A DNA stretch of 64,000 bases, taken from positions 17,858,001 through 17,922,000 of the forward strand of contig NW_024704743.1 in assembly GCF_018977255.1 (NCBI RefSeq), written 5' to 3'. Below are positions 12,079 to 43,999 of the stretch, piece after piece. This stretch comes from Callorhinchus milii. Taxonomy: Eukaryota. The translations under genes were made by a program, and so were the position numbers. Position 1 is the stretch's first letter, and each line of letters opens with the position of its first letter. The notes under the pieces were generated by a model. It saw nothing but the letters and a program-made list of their open reading frames with translations, was not told the DNA's origin and ran no database searches.

Positions 12079-13464
12079 CTGTAACACACAGACATAGTAC
12101 AAAAATATTAATGTGCTTTTTTTTGGATACTTTAAAAAAAATACATTGTTTGAATATCAAAAACAGCTTTCCCATTATGCTGTATTAGACTACAATAAAA
12201 ACACTGTTTAAAGAGGAGGCTGGCATCTATTTTATCTAACTTACAATGAGATCTATTTTTATAAAAATAGCGATCTGCTTGTTTAATTGTTATAATCTTT
12301 ATAATGGGAAATAACATATTTATAATGGGATTTTCCATTAGAAAGATGTAACAGATTGTGATTTTAGCGATTTGTGTAGGATAGGCCCTAATAACAGCAA
12401 AATAAATCATGTGCTGCTACAAATCCTATACAACCTGTTACATTAATTCACATTATTACAATTCATTCGATTTTTTCTTGGTCTTTTCTGATCCCGTACA
12501 TTCATATTTTTCTATGAAACAATTTAAGTAACCAATCTGAAACCTTACGCATAGAAGTGCATACATATGATCTTCTGGCAAGTTAACAGCAATTTTACAA
12601 TAAATATGGATGTGAACAGGCCACAATAAGTTTTACCAGTGGGGCTTTCAGTTATGTACAGTTGTGGGCACTCCAGTAAAGGAGATATAAAAGCATCGGA
12701 AAAGGTGCGTTGTAGATTCATAGGAACGAACATGGAAAATTATGAAGAAGGGGAACCATTCAGTCCAACGAGGCTGTTTCATAGTTTATTAGATCTTGGT
12801 AGATCTTTAAAGCCCAATTCCCCATCCTTTCGCCACACCCCTTAATATTTCTATTACCCAAGTAGCTATCTATCGCTCCGTTAAATATTCCTATTGATTC
12901 TGCCCCTACTAAAATACCAATTTCCATAATCAAGAACAGCAATGGAGTCCTGCAATAAAATCATTGGATCCAGCCATTTTGCTGAGGCTGTCCCTGTGAA
13001 TAAACCCTTGAATGTCATTAGTTATTTTATGGCCTTTTGTTCTCGGAAGATTCACATATTTGCATCCTTTGACCTCTCTGTTCTTTAATATCATTAGCAT
13101 CTACACCATTTAGGATTTACTTTATTTCTTTAGTTCCCCTCACTCCCCACCTCCTTGCAAAATGTACCAATTTAAATTTCTCAACATTAAACTACATCTA
13201 CCATTGATCTGTACACTCTGCTCAGCAGTCTCTGTCATCCTACAATTTTCTTCTTCAGTTTGTTGTATCCCATAATTTTAATAATAAAAAATAATAATCA
13301 TTTGATCACTTCAATCCACGACTGTTTGTTGTACACTGATGTGCACAATTGGCTGCCGCGTTTTGTCCAGAAAATATTCTATGAAGCGCTTTGAGACTTC
13401 TCAACAACATGATAAAGTGTATATCAAATGCAAGGATTATTATTATTATTATTTTGTTTTACTA

Positions 13465-13641
<177 letters not shown>

Positions 13642-15359: not shown

Positions 15360-15941
<582 letters not shown>

Positions 15942-24470: not shown

Positions 24471-24557
24471 CATAAAGTTATTCCTCGCACTTATGGACAA
24501 TTCCAGTGGATAAACTTCATCGGAGTTGGCGGTGGGGCGGTGGGTTTCATCATCCAT
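24471..24557 (-). CDS. STEAP1: STEAP1 probable first coding exon (MDDETHRPTANSDEVYPLELSISARNNFM)
   Basis: ATG at 24557, 87 nt to a phase-0 gtaaca donor, with upstream AG acceptors at 24590-24591 and 24601-24602. Joins the next exon in frame to give 339 aa. The peptide itself is poorly conserved, so the assignment rests on structure. Confidence 0.7.
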
Positions 24558-24826: not shown

Positions 24827-25810
24827 AGTGTGAGTGATTGTGTGTGTGAGTGTGTGTGTGTATGAGTGAGTGTGTGTGTGAGTGTGTGTGAATGAGTGAG
24901 TGTGTGTGAATGAGTGAGTGTGTGTGAATGTGTGTGTGTGTGAATGAGTGTGTGTGAACAAGTGAGTGTGTGTGTGAATGAGTGTGTGAGTGTGTGTGAA
25001 TGAGTGTGTGTGTGAATGAGTGAGTGTGTGTGAATGAGTGAGTGTGTGAGTGTGAATGAGTGAGTGTGTGTGCGAATGAGTGTGAATGAGTGAGTGTGAG
25101 TGTGAATGAGTGAGTGTGTGTGAGTGTGAATGAGTGAGTGTGTGTGAATGAGTGTGTGTGTGAGAGTGAGTGTGTGTGAATGAGTGAATGAGTGTGAATG
25201 AGTGTGTGTGAGAGTGAGTGTGTGAGTTTGTGTGTGTGTGAATGAGTGAGTGTGTGTGAATGAGTGTGAGTGTTAATGAGTGAGTGTGTGTGTGAATGAG
25301 TGTGAATGAGTGTGTGTGAGAGTGAGTGTGTGAGTTTGTGTGTGTGTGAATGAGTGAGTGTGTGTGAATGAATGAGTGTGTGTGAATGAGTGAGTGTGTG
25401 TGAATGAGTGAGTGTGTGTGAGTGTGAATGAGTGAGTGTGTGTGAATGAGTGTGTGTGAATGAATGAGTGTTTGTGAATGAGTGAGTGTGTGTGTGAATG
25501 AGTGTGTGTGTGAATGAGTGTGTGTGAGTGAGTTTGTGTGTGTGTGAATGATTGTGTGTGAGTGAGTGTGTTTGTGTGTGTGTGTGAATGAGTGAGTGTG
25601 AATGAGTGAGTGCGTGTGTGAGAGTGAGTGTGTGTTTGTGTGTGTGTGTGAATGAGTGAGTGTGAATGAGTGAGTGCGTGTGTGAGAGTGAGTGTGTGAG
25701 TTTGTGTGTGTGAGTGAATGAATGAGTGTATGAGTGAGTGAGTGAATGACTGTGTGTGTGTGAGAGTGAGAGTGTGTGAGGGACTGAGTGTGAGTGTGAG
25801 TGAGTGTGAG
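24827..25810. repeat. Compound TG-rich simple repeat (tgtgaatgag/tgtgag variants)
   Basis: Directly visible; source of the His/Thr-rich pseudo-ORFs. Confidence 0.97.
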
Positions 25811-25933
25811 CAGTCCCAGCCCCTGGGTTCCCCCTGACCGGCTGCTCCGGGGCTGACACACAGGTCTGAAATGTGAGTCAGACCCACGTTGGCAACGATT
25901 CGCGCAGAATAACTCCAACAAGAGATCAGCGAA

Positions 25934-28297
25934 TGTGTGTCTGTGTGAGTGTGTGTCTGTGTGTCTGTGTGAGTGTCTGTCTGTGTAAGTCTGTGTCTGT
26001 GTGAGTGTGTGTCTGTGTGAGTGTGTGTCTGTGTGTGTGTGTGTCTGTGTGTCTGTGTGTGTGTGTCTGTGTGAGTGTGTGTCTGTGTGTGTGTGTGTGA
26101 GTGTGTGTCTGTGTGAGTGTCTGTGTGTGTGTGTGTGAGTGTGTGTCTGTGTGTGTGTGTGTGTGTGTGAGTGTGTGTGTGTGTGAGTGTGTGTCTGTGT
26201 GTGTGTGTGTGTGTGGTGTGTGTCTGTGTGAGTGTGTGTCTGTGTGAGTGTGTGTCTGTGTGAGTGTGTGTCTGTGTGAGTGTGTGTCTGTGTGAGTGTG
26301 TGTCTGTGTGAGTGTGTGTCTGTGTGAGTGTGTGTCTGTGTGAGTGTGTGTCTGTGTGAGTGTGTGTCTGTGTGAGTGTGTGCTGTGTGAGTGTGTGTCT
26401 GTGAGTGTGTGCTGTGCGTCTGAGTGTGTGCTGTGAGTGTGTGGTGTGTGTCTGTGTGAGTGGTGTGTCTGTGTGAGTGTGTGTCTGTGTGTGAGTGTGT
26501 GTCTGTGTGAGTGTGTGTCTGTGTGTGTGAGTGTGTGTCTGTGTGAGTGTGTGTCTGTGTGTCTGTGTGAGTGTGTGTCTGTGTGAGTGTGTGTCTGTGT
26601 GTGTGAGTGTGTGTCTGTGTGAGTGTGTGTCTGTGTGTGTGAGTGTGTGTCTGTGTGAGTGTGTGTCTGTGGTGTGGTCTCTGTGAGTGTGTGTCTGTGT
26701 GAGTGTGTGTCTGTGTGAGTGTGTGTCTGTGTGAGTGTGTGTCTGTGTGTGTGTGTCTGTGTGAGTGTGTGTCTGTGTGAGTGTGTGACTGTGTGTGTGT
26801 CTGTGTGAGTGATGTGTGTCTGTGTGAGTGATGTGTGTGTCTGTGTGAGTGTGTGTCTGTGTGTGTGAGTGTGTGTCTGTGTGAGTGTGTGTGTGTGTGA
26901 GTGTGTCTCTGTGAGTGTGTGTCTGTGTGAGTGTGTGTCTCTGTGAGTGTGTGTCTGTGTGAGTGTGTGTCTGTGTGAGTGTGTGACTGTGTGTCTGTGT
27001 GAGTCTGTGTGAGTGTGTCTGTGTGAGTGTGTGTCTGTGTGAGTGTGTGTCTGTGTGAGTGTGTGTCTCTGTGAGTGGTGTGTCTGTGTGAGTGTGTCTG
27101 TGTGAGTGTGTGACTGTGTGGTCTGTGTGAGTGTGTGTCTGTGTGAGTGTGTGACTGTGTGTCTGTGTGAGTGTGTGTCTGTGTGAGTGTGTGTCTGTGT
27201 GAGTGTGTGTCTGTGTGAGTGTGTGTGTCTGTGTGAGTGTGTGTCTGTGTGTCTGTGTGAGTGTGTGTGTCTGTTGTGTGAGTGTGTGTCTGTGTGTGTG
27301 TGTGTCTGTGTGAGTGTGTGTCTGTGTGAGTGTGTGTCTCTGTGTGTGAGTGTGTGTGTGTGTGTCTGTGTGTGTCTGTGTGAGTGTGTCTGTGTGTGTG
27401 TGTGTGTGTCTGTGTGTGAGTGTGTGTCTGTGTGTGAGTGTGTGTCTGTGTGAGTGTGTGTGAGTGTGAGTGTGTGTGAGTGTGTGTGAGTGAGTGTCTG
27501 TGTGTGTGTCTGTGTGTGTGAGTGTGTGAGTGTCTGTGTGTGTGAGTGTGTGTCTGTGTGAGTGTGTGAGTGTGTGTGTGAGTGTGTGTGAGTGTCTGTG
27601 TGTGAGTGTGTATGTGTCTATGTGTGAGTGTGTGTGAGTGTCTGTGTGTGTGAGTGTGTGTGTGTCTGTGTGTGTCTGTGTGAGTGTGTGTGTCTGTGTG
27701 AGTGTGTGTCAGTGTGAGTGAGTGTGTGTGAGTGTGTGTGAGTGTCTGTGTGTGAGTGTGTATGTGTCTATGTCTATATGTGAGTGTGTGTGAGTGTCTG
27801 TGTGTGAGTGTGTGTGTGTGTGTGTCTGTGTGAGTGTGTGTGTCTGTGTGAGTGTGTGTCAGTGTGAGTGAGTGTGTGTGAGTGTGTGTGAGTGTCTGTG
27901 TGTGTGTGAGTGTGTGTGTGTGTGTGAGTGTGTGTCTGTGTCTGTGTGTGAGTGTGTGTGTGAGTGTGTGTGAGTGTCTGTGTGAGTGTGTGTGTGTCTG
28001 TGTGTGAGTGTCTGTGTGAGTGTGTGTGTGTCTGTGTGTGTGTGTCAGTGTGTGTGAGTGTGTGTGTGTGTGTGTGTGTCTGTGTGTGTCAGTGTGTGAG
28101 TGTGTGTCTGTGTGAGTGTGTGTGTCTGTGTGAGTGTGTGTGAGTGTCTGTGTGTGTGTCTATGTGTGAGTGTGTGTGAGTGTCTGTGTGAGTGTGTGTG
28201 TGTCTGTGTGTTAGTCTGTGTGAGTGTGTGTGTCTGTGTAGTGTGTGTCAGTGTGTGTGAGTGTGTGAGTGTGTGTCAGTGTGAGTGAGTGTGTGTG
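25934..28297. repeat. Compound TG-rich simple repeat (tgtgtc/tgtgag variants), about 2.4 kb
   Basis: Directly visible. Confidence 0.97.
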
Positions 28298-28335
28298 CAC
28301 ACTGTGTAAAGTTGCTCAGAGTCAGTGAATGTCAC

Positions 28336-28422
28336 CTCTGAGCAGAGCTCCTGTCACAGCCACAGCCACAGCAGCAATCAATGAGCAATCAGCCGCCCTG
28401 CGCTTCCCAGTCTGTCTGCCCG
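28336..28422 (-). other. STEAP1: Candidate non-coding first exon of STEAP1
   Basis: Short unique GC-rich stretch directly downstream (minus sense) of the GC-box minisatellite, ending at GAG|GTGACA (GT at 28334-28335). TSS not determinable. Confidence 0.4.
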
Positions 28423-28423
28423 C

Positions 28424-29662
28424 CCCCCGCCTGTCAATCACACCGTCCACAGCCCCGCCCCCCGCCTGTCAATCACACCGCCCACAGCCCCGCCCCCCGC
28501 CTGTCAATCACACCGTCCACAGCCCCGCCCCCCGCCTGTCAATCACACCGTCCACAGCCCCGCCCCCCGCCTGTCAATCACACCGTCCACAGCCCCGCCC
28601 CCGCCTGTCAATCACACCGTCCACAGCCCCGCCCCCGCCTGTCAATCACACCGTCCACAGCCCCGCCCCCCGCCTGTCAATCACACCGTCCACAGCCCCG
28701 CCCCCGCCTGTCAATCACACCGCCACAGCCCCGCCCCCGCCTGTCAATCACACCGTCCACAGCCCCGCCCCCGCCTGTCAATCACACCGTCCACAGCCCG
28801 CCCCCCGCCTGTCAATCACACCGTCCACAGCCCCGCCCCCGCCTGTCAATCACACCGTCCACAGCCCCGCCCCCCGCCTGTCAATCACACCGTCCACAGC
28901 CCCGCCCCCGCCTGTCAATCACACCGTCCACAGCCCCGCCCCCGCCTGTCAATCACACCGTCCACAGCCCCGCCCCCCGCCTGTCAATCACACCGTCCAC
29001 AGCCCCGCCCCCGCCTGTCAATCACACCGTCCACAGCCCCGCCCCCCGCCTGTCAATCACACCGTCCACAGCCCCGCCCCGCCTGTCAATCACACCGTCC
29101 TCAGCCACGCCCCCGCCTGTCAATCACACCGTCCACAGCCCCGCCCCCGCCTGTCAATCACACCGCCCACAGCCCGCCCCCCGCCTGTCAATCACACCGT
29201 CCACAGCCCCGCCCCCCGCCTGTCAATCACACCGTCCACAACCCCGCCCCCGCCTGTCAATCACACCGTCCACAGCCCCGGCCCCCGCCTGTCAATCACA
29301 CCGTCCACAGTCCCGCCCCCCGCTTGTCAATCACACCGTCCACAGCCCCGCCCCCCGCCTGTCAATCACACCGTCCACAGCCCCGCCCTCGCCTGTCAAT
29401 CACACCGTCCACAGCCCCGCCCCCCGCCTGTCAATCACACCGTCCACAGCCCCGCCTCCGCCTGTCAATCACACCGTCCACAGTCCCGCCCCCCGCCTGT
29501 CAATCACACCGTCCACAGCCCTGCCCTCCGCCTGTCAATCACACCGTCCACAGCCCCGCCCCCTCGCCTGTCAATCACACCGTCCACAGCCCCGCCCCCG
29601 CCTGTCAATCACACCGTCCACAGTCCCGCCCCCGCCTGTCAATCACACCGTCCACAGCCCCA
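28424..29662. repeat. GC-rich minisatellite, 34-35 bp unit (cgcctgtcaatcacaccgtccacagccccgcccc[c]), about 35-36 copies
   Basis: Directly visible tandem array. The minus strand of each unit reads GGGGCGGGG...TGATTGACAG. Confidence 0.97.
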
Positions 29663-30055
29663 CCCACCCGCCCTCACACACACCATTGGTCCCGGTGACC
29701 TGTCCGTCACAGCCGCCCACTGCCACGTGCCCCGTCTGCTCACTCCGCGGGGGGTGGGGGGGGGCACTGCTGAGCCGCAGTCTGACTGATGACCTGTCTC
29801 ACTGTGTCAGTGCAGTGCCTCCAGACGCTTCCTTCCACCTGATGATCACATCTGCCGTAATCCCTGCCTTTCACACCGAGCCTCGGCGGATCCCGGAGTT
29901 TGTAGGGATTGGCGGCCGCGTTTCACCCACAAAAATATACAGTCAATTCACTTTGCAGTCTATTCTGTGAAGCGCTTCGAGACGTCTAGAAGACGTGATA
30001 ACCTGCCAACAATGCAAGGATCAGTATTGTTATTCCTCCGCCTTGGCCCTTAATA

Positions 30056-30380
30056 ATATAATAATAATAATAATCCTTGCATTTGATATAGCGCTTTTCA
30101 CGTTGGGAGGACGTCCCAAAGCGCTTCACAGAACACACTGTAAAGTGAATTGACTGTATGTTTGTGGGCGAACGCGGCAGCCAATTGCGCACAGCAATGT
30201 CCCACAAACAGTCGTAGATTGAAAATGACCAATTTATTATTGTTTTGGTTTTGGAGGAATTATTATTAGGCTCTGTGTGGAGTAAGGAAACTTGCCCAAG
30301 GTTTCGCCCTCTGCCTGGAATTGAACTCAGGTCTCTCGCTTGCAAAGCGAGTGCTCTAACCACTGAGCTACAGGACTCCA
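30056..30380 (-). mobile_element. tRNA(Ala-like)-headed SINE with L2-type tail, full length, short subfamily
   Basis: Head GGAGTCCTGTAGCTCAGTGGTTAGAGC...GAGTTCAATTCC (A/B boxes), conserved body and (tta)n tail. Near-identical relatives at 22898-23217, 54165-54467 and 9706-9920. Confidence 0.92.
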
Positions 30381-30914
30381 TGTTTCACCCTCAAAAATAT
30401 ACAGTCAGTTGTTTGCCTTGTTTGCCTGTGCTCACATCACACCTGAAGACCTTTCTCTTGCTCCGTGCCTTCTGCCTGAGCAAGTTTGTAAAACGCCTTT
30501 CACATGGGGAGGACGTCCCAAGGCGCTGGACAATCAGTGTTTCGGACTCGAGCTGGGGGTCGGGATCGGGGAAGGTGAAGGGCAGGGGAGCAAAGAGGGT
30601 GATTGAAGGCACGATCGAAGAGGAGAGTCTTGAGACGGGTCTTGAAGGAGACGAGGGAGGGAGCGAGTCTTCAGTCACCTCCTCTATCTCCGTCCAGCTC
30701 AGGCGCCAAACCACACCACTGTTTGTGCGCTCCAAGACGCTACTCCAGGGTGCTTTATAAATGCAAATTGTTGTGATTGTAGGAAGCGCTTTTGAGTCGT
30801 CCTCCTCAAGTGAAAGACACTATATAAATAAATTGTATTCTATTGTGTATTTGGAAGTGCAAGTTTATATCAAATGCAAGGATTATTGTGTAATATATAT
30901 TCTCTGATCTTAGA

Positions 30915-31060
30915 ATTTCAGAGCATGCAGAATTTGGCAAATTCTTAAAATATAGCCTTAATTTTCAGGCAGGCTTTCCGCGGAGCTGTTTAGTACAGAA
31001 AGCTGGCTTCAAAGTTAAGACTGAGTTCAAAAAATTGTCAGATTTTCCAAGCTCTGAAAT
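30915..31060. mobile_element. Small MITE-like element, about 146 bp
   Basis: Perfect 10-bp inverted ends atttcagagc/gctctgaaat extending imperfectly to about 30 bp; diverged inverted copy at about 14812-14960. Confidence 0.6.
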
Positions 31061-32332
31061 AGTATAATATTATGTCAAAAGATCTCAAAGTGTTTCTCAT
31101 GTTTTCTGTAGTGACTGTTTGTAGGAGGATGTGGCAGCTAATTTGCACAAAGCAATTGGTTGTCACATTAACAATATCATCTGCTATTATAAATGTAATA
31201 TTTTATCTTACTTTTGATAAAATATGGAAACTATGTTTGCATGAAAGTGGACATAAAATCTGCTTCAGATGTGGCAACAACAACAACAAAATTACATTTG
31301 TTTAGGTCCTTTCACTTCAGGAGGATGTCTCAAGGCGCTGGACAATCAGTGTTTCGACAGCCAACATAACAAGTCTACAGGAATCCAGGAACTGAACTTA
31401 ATATCGAACAGCCCACTGACATGACAATAACATATTAAGATTAATTGTAAGATCACATTCCACATCAGATAAGACTGTCATTTTATCCTAATTTTACTTA
31501 AGATCATATTTCCTGGCCACTTTCATCTAATTTTTTTTGTCACCCACCATAACATAATATACTGGAATGGATGCAGTGATAATACTTGTCAATACTCTCT
31601 GTCTTCCATTCTCCTTTTTACTCCTTTTACCTCCTATTCTTCATTTTTCATCCTTTTTAATTTTTGTATTTTCCACTTTTTCCCTATAAAGTAACTGTCA
31701 CTGTAATGCCAATATTCCTCCTTAATCCAAATTCACCCAAATTAATTCCATTCAATTTATTTTTATTGTTAATCATCTTTATTGTTTGTGAAACATTGCA
31801 CGTATGGATTGACTGCTGTCTTTACCCATATGAAAAACATTCGATATTAAAGACTTTTGTTGCATTTCCAGATCATGATCCCTTTTTGATTCAATCACTA
31901 ATTTTGGTCCTTCCAGCTTGTGATCAGGTGAATATAAAAGAATCCCTCCTTCCCCGACTAAGGTATATTTCAAAGAAAAGTTAAGTTTTCCTCGTGGTAT
32001 GTTGGTTTATATTCCCTACTTATCAAAATTCATTGCAAAAGTTCTAATAAATTGTTTGTAAGACATTTCTCATTTCTACTTCTTATTAGCTGTCGCATTT
32101 GCCTCCTTGGCATCATTCACTTCATTTCTAATTAATCTCATGCTCTAACTTTTGTTTACTTTTAACTGAAAGGCATCACATGAATATAACTTGTGTGAAT
32201 AAAGTCTCCATGGCTACAAATCAAGTCCTCTTTTCTGATCTGGTAACATGCAGTCAATAGGGTGACTTTCTGAATTTCCTGCAATATTATATTGTGCAGT
32301 GCAATGCTGGTAAAGACCTTAAAAAGAGACCA

Positions 32333-32856
32333 AACAACAACAACAACAACAAGATTCCATTTATAGAGCGCCTTTCACGTCAGGAGGACGTCCCAAGGCG
32401 CTGGACAGTTGGGTCAGGACCCGAGCAGAGGGGAAATGGTCAGGGTGAGGGGAGGGAAGGGAGGGAGCGAGGAGGGGGCAGACAGTCAAGAGGGGAGCTG
32501 AAGTCACGGTTGAAGAGAAAGGTCTCGAGACCGGCCTTGAAGGAGGAAAGGGAGGAGGCGGCGAAGGCACTGGGGGATGGAGTTCCAGAGCCTGGGGGCT
32601 GAGAGGCTGAAGGCCCGGCCACCGATGGTAGGGCGGTTGGGGCGGGGGATGTGGAGCAGACCGGAGCCAGAGGAACGGAGGGTACGGGCAGGTAAGTAGG
32701 GGGATAGTAGGTCGGAGAGGTAGGAGGGAGCAAGGCCGTGAATAGCCTTGTAGGTGAGGATGAGGATCTTGAATTCGATCCTCTGGGGGATGGGGAGCCA
32801 GTGGAGGCGACGAGGGTGGGAGTGATGTGGTGAGAGCCTGGTGCGGGACAGTACAC
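32333..32856 (-). mobile_element. L2 LINE 3' fragment (relatively young subfamily)
   Basis: (caa)n tail; nearly collinear with the copy at 61918-62584. Confidence 0.9.
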
Positions 32857-33351
32857 AGTGTTTAAAACAGTGGTTCAGGATGGTATTAAAATGGTGTTAA
32901 TGTGCACACGGTATTTTGTTATTGATGCCATTGCATTTTAAAACTAAACTGTAAAATTTTGCAGAAGAAAGTGCAAACAAGATCTCCCATTACTAAACAT
33001 TAGAGAATTTAAATTCAGTTTTCTTCATCGGCTTGGAAGATTGCACAATTCCTTTTTTTTGGGTCAGCCGAGTGTCTTACACATGCGGAAATCCATCACT
33101 ATGTGTAAGAGTATTCAAACCAAACTGACATTTCCAGTATCCCACCTACACATAGAAATCCCAGAGATAGATTGTTGGAATGGAATGCACTCTCTCTCTG
33201 GGACATCCTCGTGATGTGAAAGGTGCAATACAAATGTAATTTGTTGTTGTTGAAGAGATGCATCCTGCTTACCTAATTCTGGAAAGTTTGGCGAGAGCCA
33301 AGGCTTTGGGCCCCCAGAGTGTGCAGTCTAACCAGATAAAATGCCAAAGCT

Positions 33352-33740
33352 TAATAATAATAATTGTTGCATTTGATATAAAGTCTTACCACACCTTCGA
33401 GACATTTCAAAGCACTTCACAGGATACACTGCAAAGTGTAGTGACTATGTGTTTTGTGGGAGAATGTGGCAGCCCATTCTGCACAATGAAGTCCCACAAA
33501 CAGTTGTGGATTGAGTGACCACATTGTTATTATTATTATGAAGGGATTATTACCCCAGGAAAGTGATCCACCAATCAACAAACATGCAGGTTCCAACTTA
33601 CTGCTAGGTAAACAGAGGCGTGTGTGTGTGGAGTAAGGAAACTTGCCTTAGGTTTCGGCCTGTCTCGAGCGGGAATTGAACCCAGGTCCTCTCACTTGCG
33701 AGGCGAGCGCTCTAACCACTGAGCTACATGCAGGATTCCA
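33352..33740 (-). mobile_element. tRNA-headed SINE (long subfamily)
   Basis: Same family. Confidence 0.85.
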
Positions 33741-33889
33741 TTGATATTATAACACAACAAAGATACACTGAATATACAATAATTCAAAATAATATCAAGA
33801 ATATACAAAACAGTTTTCATACAATCAACTCTAAACCTGCATACGATCAAATAATTTTACTTTACATACATTTCCTTGACACTTAGAAG

Positions 33890-34490
33890 ACCATTAAATA
33901 TCTTCAACCCTCAGCTATCCTTCAAACCCCACATTTGTGCCGTGACCCGTTCCACCTTTCCCCACCTCTGCAATATTGGCCGCCTCCACCACTGCCTCTC
34001 ACCGCAGGCTGCTGAGACCCTGATCCACGCTTTCATCACGTCCCGTCTTGACTACGCCAACTGCCTGCTCACTGGGATTCTCAACTCTTCCCTCCACACG
34101 CTGCAGATTATTTAGAGCTCTGCAGCTCGTGTCCTCTCCCGCACCAGGAACCAATCACCCTGTTCTTGCCCGGCTTCAGTGGCTCCCCATCGCTCAGACA
34201 ATCGAGTAGAAAACCCATGTTTTCACTTTCAAAGCCCTCCGCGTCTTCTTGCCCCCTACCTCTCCGACCTCCTAACCACATATCAGCCTGTCCGCTTCCT
34301 CCGCTCAGTGGACCACGGCTGCTTCAGGCCCTCCGCACTTCCCGCCGCACCATTGACGGTTAGACATTCAGCATTTCTGCCCCAACACTCTGGAACTTTA
34401 TCCTGCTATTCCTTTGCCTCACCCCCACTCGTGCCTCCTTCAAATACCATCTAAAAACCTTCCTCTTTGACCGTGCCTTTGGCCATCCTT
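33890..34490 (+). mobile_element. L2 LINE fragment
   Basis: AAETLIHAFITSRLDYANCLL remnant of the RT C-terminal region. Confidence 0.88.
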
Positions 34491-34494
34491 CAAA

Positions 34495-34720
34495 TTCAGT
34501 TGTGGCAAGTTGAAGACACCACCCAAGGGTATCTCTATCAAGCGTGTTGCGATGATTGGACTTTTCAATGCAGAGACACGCGTTTTCACAAATGCATGTG
34601 CTTGCAAACATAGAACCCATCTTCAGTGCAAGATCATTTAATTTAGGAGAACGATCCTTAGGAATAACTTTCCAAACGTTTTCGTGAATCTCATTCTTCT
34701 TTGAGATGAACATCGGGTCA
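34495..34720 (-). mobile_element. hAT (Charlie/SPIN-like) transposase C-terminal relic
   Basis: ENVWKVIPKDRSPKLNDLALKMGSMFASTCICE...KSNHRNTL...LQLATT resembles the hAT C-terminal dimerisation region. Confidence 0.75.
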
Positions 34721-35895
34721 GGGGCGGCAGCCAAACGGGCACGCCGAGACTGGGCATCATCAGCCCGCGGACGTAGCTGGAAGGATGACACTCATAGTGT
34801 TACAGGTTGCCTGACCTAGTAAATAATTCAGAGAGGATTGAGAGATTTGAGAGAGAAAGAGGGGAGAGAAGCGAGAGAGGACCGGAAGGGATCCCTTGCT
34901 TTGGTATAGTTTAATTTGAAAAATAGAACTATCCTTTTTAATGTAAGGACGTTAAAAGTAAGATGTTATATCAAATTCAAGGATATATATTATTTAATAA
35001 ATATTCAATTGCACCACTATTCAGCTGAATCTGGATTAAGGCATAAACTTAATATGACGTTGAACCTCACAGAGTATTATGTTTGTAGCACCACCATCTG
35101 TTCTCAAACCGAATACAGGTGAATGTGATAGCTTTTACTGCACAGTGATGTCGTTCCATCTACTGGACAGATGCATAAGAACAGAACCCAAGGATTTAAG
35201 AGCAAGTAAAATTTAACCCCGATACCATTAAATACTCCCAAAGCCACATTAGGGAAACATTTCTGAAATAAGACCTCATATAAGCGTAGCTATCAAAGTA
35301 TTTACCATTTTTTAACGCATAATATGATTTAAGATAACATTTTCCAAAGTAGCAAAAGCAAATCCAAAACCTAAAAAAAAAGACTTTCTTTGGAGGGGAG
35401 TATTTCTTGGCACTATATTACAGTCGGATTAAAAACAAAGTTTGGAAGTTATTTCTACGCCGTTGTGGGACATTGCTGCCGCCGTTGCCTACAAAATACA
35501 CAGTCACTCCACTTCACAGTGATTCCTGTGAAGCACTTTGATACAACAACAACAACAAAATTGCACTGATAGCGAGAGTGCCTTTCACGTCGGGCGGACG
35601 CCCCAAAGCGCTATTATCAAACACAAGGATCATAGGTACAAACTGAACACATTTCACTGTGTTCGGGCGACAGATTCACACCCTCCTGAATGGACCGCAC
35701 CCTTTCGAAGCCTCTGAGGCGCCGTCCGGCGTGAAGGGCGCTGTATAAAGCCGAGTTGTTGTTGTTGTTGCTGAATAATAATAATAATAATAATAAATAA
35801 TAAATAATAATGAATCACAAGGCAGTTTAATTACACCATTGAGGGAGGGGAGGGGAGGGCCACCACCTGCCACTGCTGCTGGATCCTGTTCCCAT

Positions 35896-36632
35896 GGGGA
35901 TCGCCATGGAGACTCTGTGATTGACAGGGCTTGAGGGGAGGGAGGGGGAGACGGGATCGCCATGGAGACTCTGTGATTGACAGGGCTTGAGGGGAGGGAG
36001 GGGGAGACGGGATCGCCATGGAGACACTGTGATTGACAGGGCTTGAGGGGAGGGAGGGGGAGACGGGATCGCCATGGAGACTCTGTGATTGACAGGGCTG
36101 GGGGGGGGGAGGGAGGGGGAGACGGGATCGCCATGGAGACTCTGTGATTGACAGGGCTGGGGGGCGGGGAGAGGGAGGGGGAGGAGGGAGACGGGATCGC
36201 CATGGAGACACTGTGATTGACAGGGCTTGGGGGGAGGGAGGGGGAAACGGATCGCCATGGAGACACTGTGATTGACAGGGCGGGGGGAGGGAGGGGAGGT
36301 GGGAGACGGGATCGCCATGGAGACACTGTGATTGACAGGGCGGGGCGGGGTAGGAGGGAGACGGGATCGCCATGGAGACACTGTGATTGACAGGGCGGGG
36401 CGGGGTAGGAGGGAGACGGGATCGCCATGGAGACACTGTGATTGACAGGGCGGGGCGGGGTAGGAGGGAGACGGGATCGCCATGGAGACACTGTGATTGA
36501 CAGGGCGGGGGGAGGGAGGGGAGGTGGGAGACGGGATCGCCATGGAGACACTGTGATTGACAGGGCGGGGGGGAGGAGAGAGGGGGAGGAGGGAGACGGG
36601 ATCGCCATGGAGACACTGTGATTGACAGGCGG
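35896..36632. repeat. G-rich minisatellite, about 55-67 bp unit with constant core gggatcgccatggagac(a/t)ctgtgattgacagg, 13 copies
   Basis: 13 TGATTGACAG-containing cores counted, separated by variable G/A-rich linkers. Confidence 0.97.
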
Positions 36633-36714
36633 CTGACCCCGTGACCGGCTCGCCAGACGATCAGCTGAGTGAGAGCTGTCGGACAGACAGACGAGCGGCG
36701 CAGTGCGGGCGGCC

Positions 36715-36824
36715 ATGGCGACCTTCAGCCTGGGGCTGGGCCTGGGCCTGGGCCTGGGGCTGCTGCTCGCCCTGTTGACACGTGCGACTGCCGGACCTTT
36801 GCACGCGCAGTGCTCGGTGAAATG
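36715..36824 (+). CDS. Uncharacterised secreted Cys-rich protein, exon 1 (signal peptide; MATFSLGLGLGLGLGLLLALLTRATAGPLHAQCSVK-W)
   Basis: Strong Kozak context gcggccATGG in a CpG island, hydrophobic leader with an A-T-A cleavage-type site, donor TG|gtaggc, phase 2. Confidence 0.88.
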
Positions 36825-36924
36825 GTAGGCAGTGTCCGCAACCCCGCGCTGCGTCTAACGTGAGGGGCGGCATAGCATTATCAGCTGCAAATTGCTGCTG
36901 TGGTCTTCACGTGATTGACACGTG

Positions 36925-38870
36925 GGTGGGGTGTGGGGGGGGTGTGGGGAAGCGGAGATGGAAAGCGCGGTCGAGGAGGAGGGTCTTGAGGTGGGTCTTG
37001 AAGATGGCGAGGGAAGGGGCCGAGGCGAGGGAGGGGGCCGAGGCGAGGGGCTGCGGGATGGAGTTCCAGAGGGTGGGGGCAGAGTGGCGGAAGGCCCGGC
37101 CGCCGAAAACGGGGCGAGCGAGGAGGGGGACGTGAAGCAGGCGCCGGAGCCGGAGCCCGCTGAGCGAGGGGGCGAACAGGATGGTAGGGGGTTAGGGGGT
37201 CGGAGAGGTAGGGGGGGGAGCAAGACTGTGGAGGGCTTTGCAGGTGAGGACCAGGATCTTGAACTGTATCCTCTGTGTGATGGGAAGCCGGTGGGATCGG
37301 GCGAGGGTGGGCGTGATAGGGTCTCGGAGCCTGGTGCGGGAGAGGGACACGGGATGATCTGCGGTCTACGGAGGGAGGAGTCGGGGAGGCCGACCAAGCA
37401 GTGAGTTTGATTAGTCGAGCCTCGATGTTGTGAATGCGTGTATGGGTTTCGGGAGCCTGCGGTGTGAGACAGTGTCGGAGCCGAGCGATGTTGCGGAGGT
37501 GGGGGAAGGCAGAGCGGGTCATGGCGCGGATGTGGGGTAGAAAGGATAGTTGAGGGTCAAACAAGACCCCAAGGTTCCGGACTGGCTCAGTGAGGTGGAG
37601 TGCACATCCACGGATGGTGATGCTGTCAGCGCCTGAGGTGAGGAAGCGCTGACAGGAGCCTATCAGGTGGACCTCGGTCTTGTTGACGTTCAACTGTAGA
37701 AAGTAGCTCTCATCCAGGACTTGATGTCTAACAGTCATTCTATCAGGACAGCAGTGGTCCTGGAGTCGAGGGTGGAGGCAGAGAGATAGAGTCGGGTGTC
37801 ATCCGCATATATGTGGAAGTTGACCCCATGTCTGTGGATGATGTCACCAAGAGGGAGCATATATATATTGAAGAGGAGGGGATCAAGGACCTCTCCTGAG
37901 GAACGCCGCATGAGAAGGTGTGGGGGCTAGAGGAGAAACGGTTTGTGGAGATGAAGCGGAGAGGATGTGAGAGGTACGATCTGAACCAGTGAAGGACAGA
38001 GCCGTGAAGGTTGAGGTGAGAGGAGAGAGGGAGGATGAGGGTAAAATAGTCGACGGTGTCGAAGGCAGCAGAGAGGTCAAGGAGGACGAGGAGGTAGAGG
38101 GAGCCCTGGTCGCAGATGGACAGAATGTCATTGGTCACTTTGACCGGGGCTGTTTCTGTGCTGTGGGCGGACTTGAAACAGGCCGGAGCAGGAGGGTGAT
38201 CGAAAACATGGTTGAAGAGAGTCTTGAGATGGGTCTTGAAGGAGGCAAGGGAGGGGGGCGAGGCGGAGGGACTGCAGGATGGAGTTCCAGAGAGTGGGGG
38301 CAGAGTGGCTGAAGGCCAGGGTGGGGGTTCGTGAAGGGAGTGGCCGGAGAGGAAGGAGCGAAGCTGGGAAGCAACAACTTGTTCCAGGACCTTGGAGAGG
38401 AAAGGGAGGTTGGTGATGGAGCTGTAGTTTGAGAGCAGGAATGTGTCCAGCGATGGGTGTGATGAAGGCTGTTTTTAAAGGGATGGGAATGGTACCAGTG
38501 GACTGGGAGAGGTTTATGATGTCTGAGTAGAAGGGAAAGAAGGTGGAGCTGGGAGGTAAGGAGAGGATTAGGAATGGGGTCGAGGGAGCAGGTGGTCGGT
38601 TTCATGCGGGTTATAGTGGTGATGTGAGAGGAGTGGGAGACAGGTCTGGTTCGAAGGTGTGGATGGAGGGATGGGTAGGGGCTAGGGTGTGACAGGGAGA
38701 TGGGGAGAGGGGGTATAGACGGTTTGGCAGAGGCAGTTGAGCGGATCCCCTTGACTTTGGATTTGAGGATGTCCAGCATCGCCTTGCAGTTGGCATTGGA
38801 GATGAGGATGGGTGAGGCATGAGAGGGTGGGCGGAGGAGCCGGTTGGTAATGAATGGCTTGCTGTCCGCT
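36925..38870 (-). mobile_element. L2-clade LINE, degraded ORF2/RT portion, in intron 1 of the plus-strand gene
   Basis: Frameshifted translations include LLVLLDLSAAFDTVD, YADD (about 37800-37811), FLQLNVNKTE and VRNLGVLFDPQLSF. The 3' part matches the other L2 copies. Confidence 0.92.
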
Positions 38871-39021
38871 TTTGGCTGCGTCATGGTTCTTCTTTTTCAT
38901 ATTGTACCTTTTTTTTCTTCAGTGAATGAGTCAGGACCAGGTAGAATGCAGCACAGTGGTCTTTGCTGGCCCTGTTCTGGTGTTGACTTTTTCTCTTCAA
39001 CCTGCTTTTTCTTCTTCACAG

Positions 39022-39130
39022 GACCTTTGGCGTTTCTTGCGCAAATGTGTATGAGGAGTTGGTAACACAAATCAAGAAGTGGAAAACTGCAGAAAATTGT
39101 GCTCATGGAGGGGAGAAATGTTTGTATACT
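39022..39130 (+). CDS. Uncharacterised secreted protein, exon 2 (W-TFGVSCANVYEELVTQIKKWKTAENCAHGGEKCLYT)
   Basis: Polypyrimidine tract plus cacag acceptor and gtaagt donor; 109 bp, phase 2 to 0, completing the TG|G Trp codon from exon 1. Confidence 0.92.
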
Positions 39131-41905
39131 GTAAGTATGAAAAGTATGTAGATTGTGGGACATTGCTGTGCACAAATTGGTACATATTTTAGTAAATCAT
39201 AATCATACTTGCATTTGATATAGTGCCTAATCACAGCGATCAGATGTCTCAAAGCGCTTCACAGGTTATACTGTAAAGTGGATTGGCTGTGTATTTTGTG
39301 GGTGTAAATCACGTGAAGTGCTTTAAAACGTCCTCGCACATATGTACCAAGTATGCCTTGTACCAAAACTTCTGGATCAATGTTGCTTCCTATTTGCTGC
39401 GTATGCTGGGTAACGTAAGGTGACGTTAGTTGACGTTGGTTGTAATCTGTAATCTGGAAGTCAGCCTTTAATTAGCAGAGGAAGCTAAACTGGATGACTT
39501 ACTCCCATTCACTGTTGATTTCAACTTCTGCTTTCCGCATATGCGGTAAAGCAAGAATGTGATGTTGGCAGTGTCCTGATGACTCGTACTTTAGTGTGAA
39601 AAGCCTGGCATCTGTATATGCTGTGAATGGGCTCCACAGTGCAATTGAGTAGAGAAACACCTAAATTTGTGCTATAAAGAAGTAAGCTGTAATCGAGCTG
39701 CGCTCTACATAAGCAAGTGTGGCAGGGAATCTGTGCCAGCAATTGTTCTGTTAACAACAATGAGACATCGATTTCCAAATTCAAAATATTGTTGAGATCT
39801 GGCAGAAGATACTTGGAGGCAGTACGACAACGTGTATTTATATAGCACCCTTCCTTCATATAGGATAATGTCTCAGAGTGCTTCACAAAATTGGAATTGG
39901 ACGCCAAGATGATGTGTGTGTTTTACGCAGGATTTAAAAACAATAACAACTTGCATTTATGTAGCACCCTTCATGGAGGGGAGAACCTCAGAGCACTGAA
40001 CAATGGGTGACATTAATGGGGAGAAACGGGAGGTGAGGATTTATGGGGAGAAACGGGGGGTGAGGAGGATTTCTTCAATGTGTTTTCAAGGCAGGAAAAG
40101 AGGAGTAAGACAGAAAGATTGATGCACAAATTAGTTTAATTGATTAATTAATATAGAATCTGGAAGAGCAGTTCAGACAAATGCCCCTTTGAGCACTGAA
40201 AGATGTTTTTATTTCCAAGAAACAATACCCATTTCTGATTCTGGATATTTTTCTCATAATTGTATTTCGAAAAGGACATCATGTGGGATGTTGATGTTAT
40301 AAAATGAACACTTGGTACACTAGAAATACTGTAGTAGATTCTGAGAAAGATTGAAAACAGCTGCACTCTCATTTGGTTTTGAACAAAATACTGCTCAAAG
40401 GGTTATTGTGTACCAGGTTGGCTCAAATGCTAATAATCCATGCATTTGATATAGAGCTTCATTATATTGTCGAGATGTTTCAAAGGGCTTCACAGGATTT
40501 TACTGAGAAGTGTAGTGACTGTGTACTTGTAGGCAAACACAGGCGCCAGTTTGCACACAGTGATGTCAGAAAGTCATTACCAGAACAGGATCAGCAAAGA
40601 TCAATGTGTTGCACTCTACTTCACTAAAGAAATAGTTGTAAAGTGAATGACCAATTACAAATTTCAAGGCAATTCCTGTTTTCTCCAGAATAAGCCTTTG
40701 AAATTGCCTGCTTGAGTATTTCTATTAACCTATTCATGCAATTTTAGTTATTTTAAATTACTATCTGTGGTTGGCCTCACCATCATCCTGATTGTCTTTG
40801 ATTCACAGGCTGAACCATTGAATGAAGCATTATTTCACTTGTATCTCGGCTCCCATCAAACCCTCTCCTTCTCCCACTCAGTGTTCATTCAGCAACTGGC
40901 AATGTTGGAAGCCAAATCTAAGTGAAGAAATATTCTCTTTTTCCTATCTTAGAAAGTCCGCAATTCTATCAGTACCAATCTGTGGACGAGTCACTGCGTG
41001 GAGAATCTTTCTAAGTATTTGAGTTCAGAAAACATATTTTTGAAGCTACACATTAGCTCCCTCAGCCTCATCCAGTTTATTCACTGAGTACAGACCATGT
41101 GGATTCTAGGCTTGATTCCCTGATCTGTAAACTGAGCTATCTTAAGTCAGCTAAGAAAGCCACGTACAGTACTAGCAATTACAATCGACCTCAATGCCCC
41201 AGGTTATGTTGGGGGAAAGATTACCTCGAATTCCTGGTAGTGCAGTGACCTTAGGGGAATACACAAGTGGGATATCAAGTCAGAACTAGGCTTGGCTGCA
41301 AAGTTCTGTGTTTGAATGGCCTGCTTCCGTTTGCTGTCTGGACTCGCACGTGAATATTGGCCACTTGATTGAAGCACTGGAGCTGTATTACACTAAACAG
41401 AAAGGAGGAGAGGGAGGAAGCGTTCAGCTGTGCTTAGCAACAACAACAACAACAAGATTCCATTTATTGAGCGCCTTTCACGTCGGGAGGACGTCCCAAG
41501 GCTCTGCAAGAGGACTCAGGCCTCATGGCTATCTTCTCCATGTCGTGGAGGGTTCCTTTGAATGAATGGTGGTCACTGTATTGCGTTCGTAAGTGCTCCG
41601 TGTGAAGGGCGCTACATAAATGCAAGTTGTTGTATTGCAACATTAGGCTGTGAGTAACTTGTGTTGAGACGATTTATTTACAAAACTAAGGTTTTGCTTT
41701 GGTGTGTTTGAAGATTTTGCAACTTTAATTGCCAATAAGAAGATCCTTGTTTTGATACCAATATACCACAACCTTTGATATTGTCAGTTGTTCGTAAGAA
41801 TGAATGATGCACATGGTCTTTCTCCCCCCCCCCCCCCACCTCTGTGGGTAACTTGCTATATCTACTAGTGTTGTGCTTTCAGTACAACTTTCTTTTCCTT
41901 CACAG

Positions 41906-42025
41906 CTGAAGTCAGCAAATGTACATTACATAGTGGCTGAGCACACCAGCCCAATGCACAAGTATGTTGACAACATTACGTTCAGACTCGTTTCTTCCTT
42001 GGGCAGGGATTCTTGCTACGTCTCA
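41906..42025 (+). CDS. Uncharacterised secreted protein, exon 3 (LKSANVHYIVAEHTSPMHKYVDNITFRLVSSLGRDSCYVS)
   Basis: tttcttttccttcacag acceptor and gtaagt donor; 120 bp, phase 0/0. Lies within ORF 41873..42076. Confidence 0.92.
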
Positions 42026-43267
42026 GTAAGTACTGCCATGTTATTTCTGTACACATCTCATAATATATATGTATGATTTGTCTGAATATCATAAATAATC
42101 ACTGATGTCTTCAGTTGCCCAATTTTCTTTGTCGGTTATCTTGGTGATTTATTAACTCACGAGATTGGATCAAGGCCTGGGTTTTGACATTTTCTAAACA
42201 ATCAGTATCATGGAATAATGCCATTCTGTAAGGAACCAGCCCCTAAATCCCCATTGATATTTGAAATTGATGGAAAAATCGCACTGGACTTTGAGCTCAG
42301 AACACCTCTCAGATCCACCCCTCTCACAAAACAATGCTTAATAATCTACATAATCCTTCTTTTAACAAAAAGATATTCACTGTTTTACTAAATACATCAC
42401 CGCCTTCTTCAGTATAAAGAAATTCAGGGAAGGGGAGCAGGAGCTGGTGATGGCTGTTGGGTGACAGTGGAGCTTGATTGTAATGCTCTCACCGCAGTTG
42501 TGCAGGTTGATAACACTTAGTTGATGTGTAAAGAGTGGAAAAGCTGCCAGTAACTGTGGAACCTACTCAGGTTTCCAACTATCCCTTGTTGAAGTGGCTC
42601 AAAAATGTAAAGGACTCATTAGCATTTGTTTACCTAGCAGTAAGCAGGAACCTGGTTGTTAGTCGATTGGCCGATCACTTTTTCGGGCTTAATAATTCTT
42701 TCAAAATAAAAACAATAATTTAGTCACTCAATCCACAACTGCACAATTGGCTGCTGCGTTTCGCCCACAAAATATACAGTCAATTCACTTTACAATATAT
42801 ATGTGAGGTGTTCTGAGACGTCTTGAAGACGTAATAAGACACTATATCGAAGGCAAAGATTATTATTATTTAAGGTTAGAAAATTCATATATCCTATAGC
42901 CATTGTTCTTCAGCATTGCATATCTTCTGGATATGGTGGATCCTTAGAGATGTGTAGAATTTCTCCCGAGGAGATGGAGTGAAGTCTATGATGGCAGGTT
43001 TTGGATAAAGATGGGTTCTGCGTGAAGAATCTAATTTATCTACATCTTTGCTGCGAAGCTCCTTTTTTGGTAACTTTTGAAAACAGGACTGCTGCCTTAA
43101 AGTTAGGGTGGCAATTCTGCAGGTTTGTGGCTGTTGTGTTTAGGTTTTCAGAATTCCATGGGTCCTCATATTCATAAGCAGTTAGCGTTGCCACATTATT
43201 ATCTTTCTTTGCATTTCTCTACACCTGCTCAGTTGCTGCTAATTCAGATCATTATGTTCTCTCGCAG

Positions 43268-43346
43268 GGATTCTCGGTTTCTGAAAAGTGGTATGCTGTC
43301 TTTGACTACGGTACAAACTACTGTAACCTGCACAACCTTATAGAAG
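43268..43346 (+). CDS. Uncharacterised secreted protein, exon 4 (GFSVSEKWYAVFDYGTNYCNLHNLIE-G)
   Basis: ttctctcgcag acceptor and G|gtaaat donor; 79 bp, phase 0 to 1. Confidence 0.92.
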
Positions 43347-43664
43347 GTAAATGGAAAAGTGAAACCCATTTTAATTATTTTTTAAAAAAGCATTTCATAA
43401 TGTTGATTTGATGATTAATTCCCCCTCTCTACCACTCCATCTCATCTTCCCCCACCCTCTCTTTCTGTCTTCTTCTTGCCTCAAATCTTAGCTCTTTAAA
43501 CATGCCTATAGCTATTTCCCTCTCCCTTGCTTGGTGCAATTCCCATTCCTGTTAAGTGCTCTAAGATGTTACCCTACGTAAAGAATGTTATGAAATGCAA
43601 GTTACTGAGTTGAGATCCTCTCGTTCTCATTTTCTTACAATAATCTGTTCTGTCCTTTTTGCAG

Positions 43665-43756
43665 GTAGTGGTTTAGACAAAGTCCCAAATTACAGCGAAT
43701 TAACAAACAACTTCCAGTGCACTCAGTACTCATCAGCTAACTGTACAATTTACTGA
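43665..43756 (+). CDS. Uncharacterised secreted protein, exon 5 (G-SGLDKVPNYSELTNNFQCTQYSSANCTIY-stop)
   Basis: tccttttttgcag-type acceptor, phase 1 matching exon 4, TGA at 43754-43756. Total CDS 510 nt = 169 aa plus stop. Confidence 0.92.
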
Positions 43757-43999
43757 ACAAGAAAGACTCTGGAGTAACAGTTGGGCAAAGTGAGCAAGAA
43801 ACCCTGATGTCCAATGCTGATTAACTCAGGCGGCTTGAATTCATTCCCGATTTGCTGAAAGAATGCAAAAGCTTTAAGCAGTTGAATTTCTGAATCTGAT
43901 ACCCAGCTGTACCTATGAACAAAGCTGCCAAGAGCTCTCATCAGGAGTATAAAAAAGAAGTCAGACTGTTTCAGCTTTATATAACTATACAATCTTAAT

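What the first reader, a model, noticed from the sequence alone, without database searches (positions are those of the whole stretch)
28424..36632. Two different promoter minisatellites amplify the same TGATTGACAG plus GC-box cassette, each oriented with its own gene
SEEN: array A (28424-29662, about 35 x 34-35 bp) and array B (35896-36632, 13 x about 60 bp) differ in unit length and flanks. Both carry gtgattgacagg(g)c followed by G-runs or GGGGCGGGG. A has it on the minus strand, ending right at the candidate STEAP1 first exon. B has it on the plus strand, ending about 85 bp before the ATG of the divergent gene. KNOWN: TGATTGACAG is the decameric PBX-PREP(PKNOX)/MEIS site enriched at vertebrate CpG promoters, and GGGGCGGGG is the Sp/KLF GC box. 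INFERENCE: the promoters here are built from tandemly amplified TF-site cassettes. These could act as copy-number-tunable promoters, or reflect a mutational process (e.g. recombination at motif-bound promoters) that repeatedly expands this motif in this lineage.
Basis: partly seen in the sequence, partly recalled or inferred. Interest (0 to 1): 0.75.

Follow-up and report, generated by a model that had tools for sequence, protein, structure and literature searches.

The report
Twin promoter minisatellites in elephant shark
Two back-to-back elephant-shark genes each have a tandem repeat upstream that multiplies the same transcription-factor site; the repeats look like by-products of recombination at unmethylated promoter DNA, and any effect on gene activity is untested.

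Summary
Both arrays are real: A has 36 units of 33-36 bp (35 exact TGATTGACAG, minus strand); B has 13 decamers 55-69 bp apart (plus strand). The genome is Callorhinchus milii. B ends 83 bp before the start codon of LOC103181569. A ends 3.87 kb upstream of the STEAP1 start codon, and its proposed first exon is unproven. The exact GC box is in 25 of 35 A units but only 4 of 12 B units; neither array has the CCAAT partner. New evidence: array A shows no CpG decay, and the 5 of 68 SINE/LINE copies within 500 bp keep more CpGs (33/42 vs 191/495) and shift AT-to-GC (p 0.005-0.04). That fits germline-unmethylated islands with recombination-driven GC-biased conversion, in a species whose PRDM9 status is disputed. 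The promoters also share a 30-bp block (p about 0.001), so a common seed is possible. Tandem arrays of this decamer also occur in unrelated metagenome DNA. Verdict: promoter minisatellites of a known kind, probably by-products; tuning of expression is untested, and no genome-wide test was possible. The scan noted other promoter arrays and a GC-shifted SINE in this genome before.

The parts
28419..29672 (-). Array A: 36 units of 33-36 bp, each a DECA site followed by a G-run/GC box; 35 exact TGATTGACAG; variant units cluster in the half far from STEAP1
   Evidence: polarity Mann-Whitney p=0.011; 1 CpG transition in 209 CpG positions vs 7 in 630 other C/G positions
35896..36632 (+). Array B: 13 DECA sites 55-69 bp apart; a near-invariant 38-bp block (ATG in Kozak context opening a 4-codon ORF whose stop is the first TGA of the decamer) and a variable purine tract; 11 canonical G-quadruplex patterns
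28393..28422 (-). 30-bp block just downstream of array A, similar to the block before the LOC103181569 ATG
   Evidence: score 28; 2 of 2000 shuffles; 3 of 2946 real window tiles reach it
36680..36708 (+). Counterpart of that block, between array B and the ATG
   Evidence: (0 of 1944 real tiles reach 28 with this flank)
28300..28423 (-). Candidate non-coding first exon of STEAP1 (unproven); weak donor at 28337
   Evidence: sequence only; no RNA laid here
29663..30030 (-). Distal flank of A: CpG o/e 0.73, one CCAAT (29685-29689, 39 bp from the nearest DECA), an E-box (29724), then a GC-shifted SINE copy
24471..24557 (-). STEAP1 first coding exon (29 codons), with acceptor-like AG sites upstream at 24602 and 24591
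   Evidence: tblastn with Heptranchias STEAP1, E=3.5e-4; one RNA? contig of run X3 lies on 24470-24541 and leaves the stretch at the donor
11803..15929 (-). STEAP1 coding exons at 15929-15438, about 13640-13474 and about 12084-11803
24828..28297 (.). 3.47-kb compound CA-type microsatellite between array A and the STEAP1 ATG exon, with a unique 170-bp island at about 25790-25960
36715..43757 (+). LOC103181569, five coding exons (36715-36824, 39022-39130, 41906-42025, about 43268-43346, about 43665-43757); uncharacterised chordate protein with a hydrophobic N-terminus
35405..35765 (.). SINE/L2 fragments upstream of B with AT-to-GC shifts, including a strongly diverged tail at about 35702-35762
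36956..37345 (.). L2 3' copy 324 bp downstream of B: 9 AT-to-GC vs 3 GC-to-AT rare changes, 14 of 16 CpGs kept

Best explanation
Two locally born CpG-island minisatellites. Each is a tandem amplification of a short piece of its own promoter region that already held a PBX-PREP DECA site beside a G-rich Sp/KLF-type tract. Shown: the arrays, their orientation, the position of B at a first coding exon, the lack of CpG decay, and the GC bias of neighbouring repeats. Inferred: the islands are unmethylated in the germline and attract meiotic breaks, as promoter-like sequences do when PRDM9 does not draw breaks elsewhere. Break repair (strand annealing, conversion, unequal exchange) then duplicates and extends the local sequence, while slippage varies the G-runs. 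The motif points the same way as each gene because the seed was that gene's own promoter. PBX/PREP and Sp/KLF probably can bind the copies and may help keep the island open, but multiplying the sites is a by-product rather than a selected dial.
For: Among TRF arrays with period 25 or more and unrelated to simple repeats, only A and B have 5 or more copies, and they coincide with the strongest CpG-rich, GC-rich stretches. Neither unit occurs elsewhere in the window. A: 1 CpG transition in 209 positions against 11.6 expected at 5-fold CpG hypermutability. The 5 of 68 SINE/L2 copies within 500 bp keep 33/42 CpGs vs 191/495 (stratified permutation p=0.0014; p=0.0018 among copies at least 3% diverged) and show 24 AT-to-GC vs 6 GC-to-AT rare changes against 199 vs 295 (p=0.005); with every possible CpG column removed it is 16:5 vs 141:214 (p=0.023; 17 of 423 slid placements reach it). 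Elephant-shark TEs are normally hypermethylated and expressed TSSs unmethylated (PMC5437953, passages). C. milii PRDM9 lacks a detectable SSXRD, was the only ortholog not found in testis RNA and shows no rapid zinc-finger evolution (PMC5519329, passages). PRDM9-independent hotspots lie in hypomethylated regions and leave this substitution signature (PMC11161765, passages). Most GC-rich human minisatellites are thought to be by-products of local meiotic recombination (PMC2599865, passages). A is polar in its variants (p=0.011).
Against: Only 5 near copies, one locus, several cut-offs tried: the GC bias weakens at 1 kb (p=0.056) and is gone at 2 kb (p=0.40). A later survey scores C. milii PRDM9 as complete because it ignores SSXRD (10.1101/2021.06.08.447603, passage). 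No TSS, methylation, binding, break or copy-number data were obtained. The STEAP1 first exon is not located, so A may lie in an intron or further upstream than assumed. A young array would also show little CpG decay, and sequencing errors could inflate the non-CpG rate. Two neighbouring promoters amplifying the same decamer is more than this model predicts, and the shared 30-bp block points to a common seed.
Confidence: 0.55

Rival explanations
1. Common seed: one short promoter module (DECA, GC tract and the CAGACAGAC-GCGCAG block) was copied in inverted orientation, or converted from one island to the other, and each copy was then amplified in a different register. The 6.2 kb between them filled with retroelements. 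The growth mechanism may be the same as in the best explanation.
For: The gene-proximal terminal copy of B matches A exactly for 16 bp, unlike the other B units, and the second shared block follows in the same orientation. That block scores above 1998 of 2000 shuffles; the opposite orientation does not (1549 of 2000 reach it). The pattern occurs only at these two places in the window. SINE and L2 models cover 38% of the interval vs 22% of the window.
Against: I saw the block by eye before testing it, and it is built from simple words. The distal flanks show no similarity (230 of 500 shuffles). With the decamer fixed, the unit similarity is marginal (237 of 5000). A 47-bp gap is needed to join the two blocks.
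Confidence: 0.23
2. Selected, copy-number-tunable promoters: the arrays are kept because more PBX/PREP and Sp/KLF sites change STEAP1 and LOC103181569 expression.
For: The decamer is changed at 1 of 350 positions vs 15 of 838 elsewhere in A units (p=0.05) and is invariant in B while the purine tract varies. Human promoter VNTRs with TF sites can affect expression (10.1101/2020.11.03.367367 and PMC12776774, passages).
Against: The conservation contrast is borderline and the variable part is slippage-prone G-runs; the non-motif 24 bp of the B block are as invariant as the decamer. Neither array contains CCAAT, the partner 11 bp from DECA in the cooperative element (10.64898/2026.02.16.706105). 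Only 1 of 7 DECA/NF-Y elements drove a reporter (PMC6023610, passage). No polymorphism or expression data.
Confidence: 0.12
3. Ordinary slippage-grown G-rich repeats whose link to the promoters and to each other is partly coincidental; A is not at the STEAP1 TSS.
For: A is 3.87 kb from the STEAP1 ATG and its proximal flank is CpG-poor. Tandem triples of the decamer occur even in prokaryote genomes without PBX (49 stretches, 26 from one MAG) and in at least 120 metagenome stretches, some probably intronic (L035, L077). The pair was picked out of 161 windows of this genome.
Against: The shared word is unlikely by chance for this pair; both arrays face away from each other in step with the genes; the flanking repeats show CpG retention and GC bias; I saw no stronger CpG-rich patch between A and the STEAP1 ATG exon.
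Confidence: 0.1

Closest known systems
Human promoter VNTRs carrying TF sites (XRCC5 Sp1 VNTR, TPMT promoter VNTR, MAOA uVNTR, HRAS1), as cited in 10.1101/2020.11.03.367367 and PMC12776774 (passages and reference lines seen)
   Same: GC-rich tandem units with TF motifs within 1 kb upstream of a gene, in a CpG island.
   Different: Here two adjacent divergent genes both have one, with different units but the same decamer; length polymorphism and an expression effect are not shown.
DECA and DECA-CCAAT elements bound by PBX/PREP, NF-Y and Sp2 (PMC6023610, passages; 10.64898/2026.02.16.706105, abstract and passages)
   Same: Exact TGATTGACAG, with Sp/KLF-type motifs nearby as reported at zebrafish Prep peaks.
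   Different: No CCAAT in any unit; the site is present in 13 and 35 tandem copies rather than singly; binding is untested in chimaeras.
PRDM9-independent (default) recombination hotspots at hypomethylated promoter-like regions (PMC11161765, PMC5519329, passages)
   Same: CpG retention and AT-to-GC substitution bias close to a promoter-like island.
   Different: Inferred from 5 repeat copies at one locus; no recombination map; tandem amplification of promoter sequence was not described in the passages I saw.
GC-rich human minisatellites at recombination hotspots (MS32, MS205, CEB1; as summarised in PMC2599865, passages)
   Same: GC-rich units, interspersed variants, polarity.
   Different: The unit here is a promoter cassette in a cartilaginous fish; germline mutation has not been measured.

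Membership tests
Promoter VNTR carrying TF sites | Head-to-tail array of units of 7 bp or more | tested here: met
Promoter VNTR carrying TF sites | Within about 1 kb of a TSS | tested here: inconclusive
   B is 83 bp from the first coding ATG; no TSS mapped; A is 3.87 kb from the STEAP1 ATG and the first exon was not located
Promoter VNTR carrying TF sites | Unit contains a TF-binding motif | tested here: met
   exact DECA in 35 of 36 and 13 of 13 sites
Promoter VNTR carrying TF sites | Copy number varies between individuals | not testable with these tools
Promoter VNTR carrying TF sites | Copy number changes expression | not testable with these tools
   needs reporters or eQTL data
DECA-CCAAT composite element | DECA decamer | tested here: met
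DECA-CCAAT composite element | CCAAT 10-12 bp from DECA | tested here: not met
   no CCAAT/ATTGG in either array; nearest is 39 bp from A's distal copy, none near B
DECA-CCAAT composite element | Occupancy by PBX/PREP in vivo | not testable with these tools
   needs CUT&RUN or EMSA
PRDM9-independent recombination hotspot | Germline hypomethylated, promoter-like region | tested here: inconclusive
   indirect only: CpG retention in array A and in neighbouring repeats
PRDM9-independent recombination hotspot | Local AT-to-GC substitution bias | tested here: met
   within 500 bp only; p 0.005 to 0.04 by test, 5 copies
PRDM9-independent recombination hotspot | Measured breaks or crossovers | not testable with these tools
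   no recombination data
RFX X-box | Match to the X-box consensus (consensus recalled, not from a call) | tested here: not met
   the B unit word has 4 mismatches in 14 and fails the strict pattern
Dispersed repeat family or transposon-borne monomer array | Same unit at other loci or inside a mobile element | tested here: inconclusive
   no other copy in the window or in scan notes by sequence; the genome was not available

The most novel reading that the evidence does not exclude
In the elephant shark, meiotic breaks directed to unmethylated promoters routinely convert core-promoter cassettes into minisatellites, so that a sizeable share of promoters are arrays of TF sites. DECA-bearing cassettes are amplified more often than other promoter sequence because bound PBX/PREP copies keep the island open and so attract further breaks, a self-reinforcing loop that makes promoter strength a heritable, fast-mutating quantity.
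Probability: 0.2. Interest if true: 0.78.

Novelty: new member of a known kind. Interest (0 to 1): 0.45.

Why it matters
How minisatellites are born, and where cartilaginous fish place recombination, are open questions. If promoter islands in a vertebrate with doubtful PRDM9 function both undergo GC-biased conversion and spawn tandem arrays of their own TF sites, one process would explain both, and a single TRF-versus-TSS count on the public C. milii assembly would test it. Such arrays are also likely to be collapsed or missing in short-read assemblies and methylomes, so promoter annotation in chimaeras may be systematically off.

Tried and rejected
Genome-wide enrichment and strand test: not possible, no genome is held. 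RNA: no listed holder is on record as RNA. The single read lay (24150-24800, four RNA? runs) was mostly filled by SINE hits at 24150-24196; the loose letters of the one exon contig were not printed and no contig covered the 5' part of the exon, so the first exon stays open. Protein searches with antisense array frames: none at E<=1e-5 among 8000 candidates; one weak unrelated repeat protein among 1.84 billion representatives; the arrays show no sign of coding. Viral contigs: 0 tandem triples. RFX site in B: not met. Hairpin in B: z=-1.9 with an almost empty centroid, rejected. G-quadruplex as a shared cause: 11 patterns in B, none in A. Distal-flank homology: none. Assembly artefact: unlikely, since units carry many distinct variants, but copy numbers and G-run lengths may hold errors. 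My first repeat analysis had overlapping fragments and subfamily markers and was replaced. No third promoter was found to serve as an internal control. Literature: searches (40 of 118 listed; 25 of 42; 25 of 31); from listings and abstract starts I saw no report of DECA minisatellites or of elephant-shark promoter minisatellites. Two chondrichthyan genome papers (PMC10620051, PMC12952989; passages) treat tandem repeats only by chromosome. I read no supplements; the PRDM9 domain tables of PMC5519329 and 10.1101/2021.06.08.447603 bear on the PRDM9 status and were not seen.
Full report
Observation. TGATTGACAG occurs 48 times in the window, 35 times on the minus strand in A and 13 times on the plus strand in B, against 0.29 expected. 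A has 36 sites and 35 full units of 33-36 bp; two variants differing by one G make up 20 of 35. B has 12 full units of 55-69 bp, with a near-invariant 38-bp block and a variable purine tract. The exact GC box is in 25 of 35 A units and 4 of 12 B units, although all 12 B units have GGGCGG or GGGAGG. The units share a 13-bp word (15 of 20000 shuffle pairs). Their best alignment beats all 5000 shuffles but only 95% of shuffles that keep the decamer, so the unit-level sharing is the decamer plus G-richness.

Organism and genes. A 40-residue exon of the plus-strand gene found one protein, V9L069 of Callorhinchus milii, clustered with XP_007896359.1, LOC103181569, whose N-terminus equals the window's reading from ATG 36715. 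The exons map at 97-100%. It is an uncharacterised chordate family with no Pfam hit above cut-off. B ends 83 bp before this ATG. The minus-strand gene is STEAP1. Its first coding exon is 24557-24471; one contig of RNA? run X3 lies on 24470-24541 and leaves the stretch at the donor, which I read as splicing, though the loose letters were not shown. Acceptor-like sites precede the ATG, so a non-coding first exon upstream is likely, but it was not located. A ends 3.87 kb from the ATG, beyond a 3.47-kb CA-type repeat. The 124 bp next to A are CpG-poor and have a weak donor. The claim that A abuts the first exon is plausible and unproven.

Motifs. The decamer is the DECA site of PBX-PREP dimers, found with CCAAT and Sp/KLF motifs at zebrafish Prep peaks (PMC6023610, passages). 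The cooperative DECA-CCAAT element needs about 11 bp spacing (10.64898/2026.02.16.706105, abstract and passages); neither array contains CCAAT. Each B unit has an ATG in Kozak context opening a four-codon frame that stops in the decamer; if transcription began inside B these would be upstream ORFs, which argues (inference) for a TSS in the last 83 bp. An RFX reading of the same word fails a recalled consensus.

Methylation footprint. Array A shows 1 CpG transition in 209 CpG positions and 7 C>T/G>A changes in 630 other C/G positions; 3-, 5- and 10-fold hypermutability would give 7, 11.6 and 23. Youth or read errors could mimic this. An independent test used retroelement copies, which are hypermethylated in this species (PMC5437953, passages). 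I built SINE and L2 3'-end profiles only from copies more than 2 kb from the arrays and kept 68 non-overlapping copies of 81 hits. The 5 within 500 bp keep 33 of 42 CpGs against 191 of 495 (stratified permutation p=0.0014; p=0.0018 among the 56 copies at least 3% diverged).

Recombination footprint. Counting only rare changes outside CpG-prone columns, the 5 near copies have 24 AT-to-GC and 6 GC-to-AT changes, the 63 others 199 and 295 (copy-level p=0.015 unstratified, 0.005 stratified). Dropping every column that could ever have been CpG leaves 16:5 against 141:214 (p=0.023), and 17 of 423 slid placements of the two arrays do as well. The signal fades at 1 kb (p=0.056) and is absent at 2 kb (p=0.40). 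More AT-to-GC with fewer GC-to-AT changes is the signature of GC-biased gene conversion, and PRDM9-independent hotspots lie in hypomethylated regions (PMC11161765, passages). Baker et al. found C. milii PRDM9 without SSXRD, undetected in testis RNA and not rapidly evolving (PMC5519329, passages); a later survey calls it complete under a looser definition (10.1101/2021.06.08.447603, passage). Most GC-rich human minisatellites are regarded as by-products of local recombination, with polar mutation (PMC2599865, passages); variants in A cluster away from STEAP1 (p=0.011). The lead for this test came from an earlier scan note on a GC-shifted SINE at another CpG island of this genome; I tested the idea here, not that locus.

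A second shared element. The unique flanks downstream of the last decamers align over 30 bp in gene orientation (2 of 2000 shuffles; 3 of 2946 and 0 of 1944 real tiles), and the terminal copy of B matches A exactly for 16 bp. I noticed this by eye first. It raises the rival that both arrays grew from one module copied in inverted orientation; a shared promoter grammar would also explain it. The distal flanks are unrelated.

Elsewhere. By a crude rule 40 of the 120 are minisatellites with mostly unrelated units, 73 have decamer-like subunits and 7 are irregular; 4 of 120 have a GC box and none has the unit of A or B. In 61 of 120 the decamer is followed by GT or CT, against 3 of 24 prokaryote rows (p=5e-4), and 28 of the 62 loci of 2 kb or more have no frame of 150 codons. 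Of 100 of 263 candidate flank frames scanned, 9 in 7 loci hit Pfam, among them LDL-receptor/EGF and vault-protein exon-like pieces beside probably intronic arrays and two prokaryote-like loci. So tandem DECA arrays are not peculiar to this lineage or to promoters; without a control decamer their enrichment is unknown. Unchecked notes from this genome list CpG-island or upstream arrays of CRE/kappaB, CTCF and locus-specific units, which suggests the process is general and the motif varies.

Mechanism and verdict. Shown: two locus-specific arrays, gene-matched orientation, B at a first coding exon, CpG retention and short-range GC bias. Inferred: germline-open islands, promoter-directed breaks, repair-driven tandem growth, TF binding. 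Best reading (0.55): local promoter cassettes amplified as a by-product of recombination. Rivals: common seed (0.23), selected tunable promoters (0.12), coincidence (0.10). Promoter VNTRs with TF sites are a known kind; I found no report of this motif or species in ten library searches, seen mostly as listings. The pair is a new member of that kind, made more interesting by the recombination footprint, and the decisive genome-wide count could not be run.

Noticed in passing
window 24828-28297: 3.47-kb compound CA-type microsatellite in two blocks of different motif, with a unique 170-bp island (about 25790-25960, CpG o/e 0.53) holding a 7-of-9 splice donor at 25887; a possible alternative STEAP1 5' exon.
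   Followed up: partly
window 36715-36762: The N-terminus of LOC103181569 is a Gly-Leu run from a hexamer repeat; the UniRef entry V9L069 starts differently and is 3 residues shorter than the window and RefSeq form.
   Followed up: no
window 35896-36632: Each B unit has a Kozak-context ATG with a four-codon frame ending in the decamer; 13 potential upstream ORFs if the array is transcribed.
   Followed up: partly
window 35702-35762: Retroelement 3' tail so GC-shifted that it was missed in the window-wide search and found only in a local one (E=3e-5); it was not among the 5 counted copies.
   Followed up: partly
window 36950-38900: Long GC-rich L2-like fragment, antisense, about 125 bp after the first exon of LOC103181569, extending the CpG-rich region into intron 1.
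   Followed up: partly
window about 10690-10925: GC-rich patch just past the STEAP1 3' end that resembles a hAT-type MITE end (resemblance recalled, not tested); no STEAP2 start was seen in 1-9000.
   Followed up: no
window 50209-50856: 215-codon frame resembling the 3' end of a CR1-type reverse transcriptase (recalled, not tested).
   Followed up: no
L001-L120: Many unrelated tandem arrays of the DECA word in low-coding metagenome contigs, biased to a following GT or CT; some alternate DECA with TGATTGGCAG (L006, L042, L073) or hold it in inverted pairs (L017).
   Followed up: partly
L121-L169: 26 of 49 prokaryote hits come from one Thermoplasmata MAG, suggesting a dispersed repeat family with this word in that genome.
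   Followed up: no
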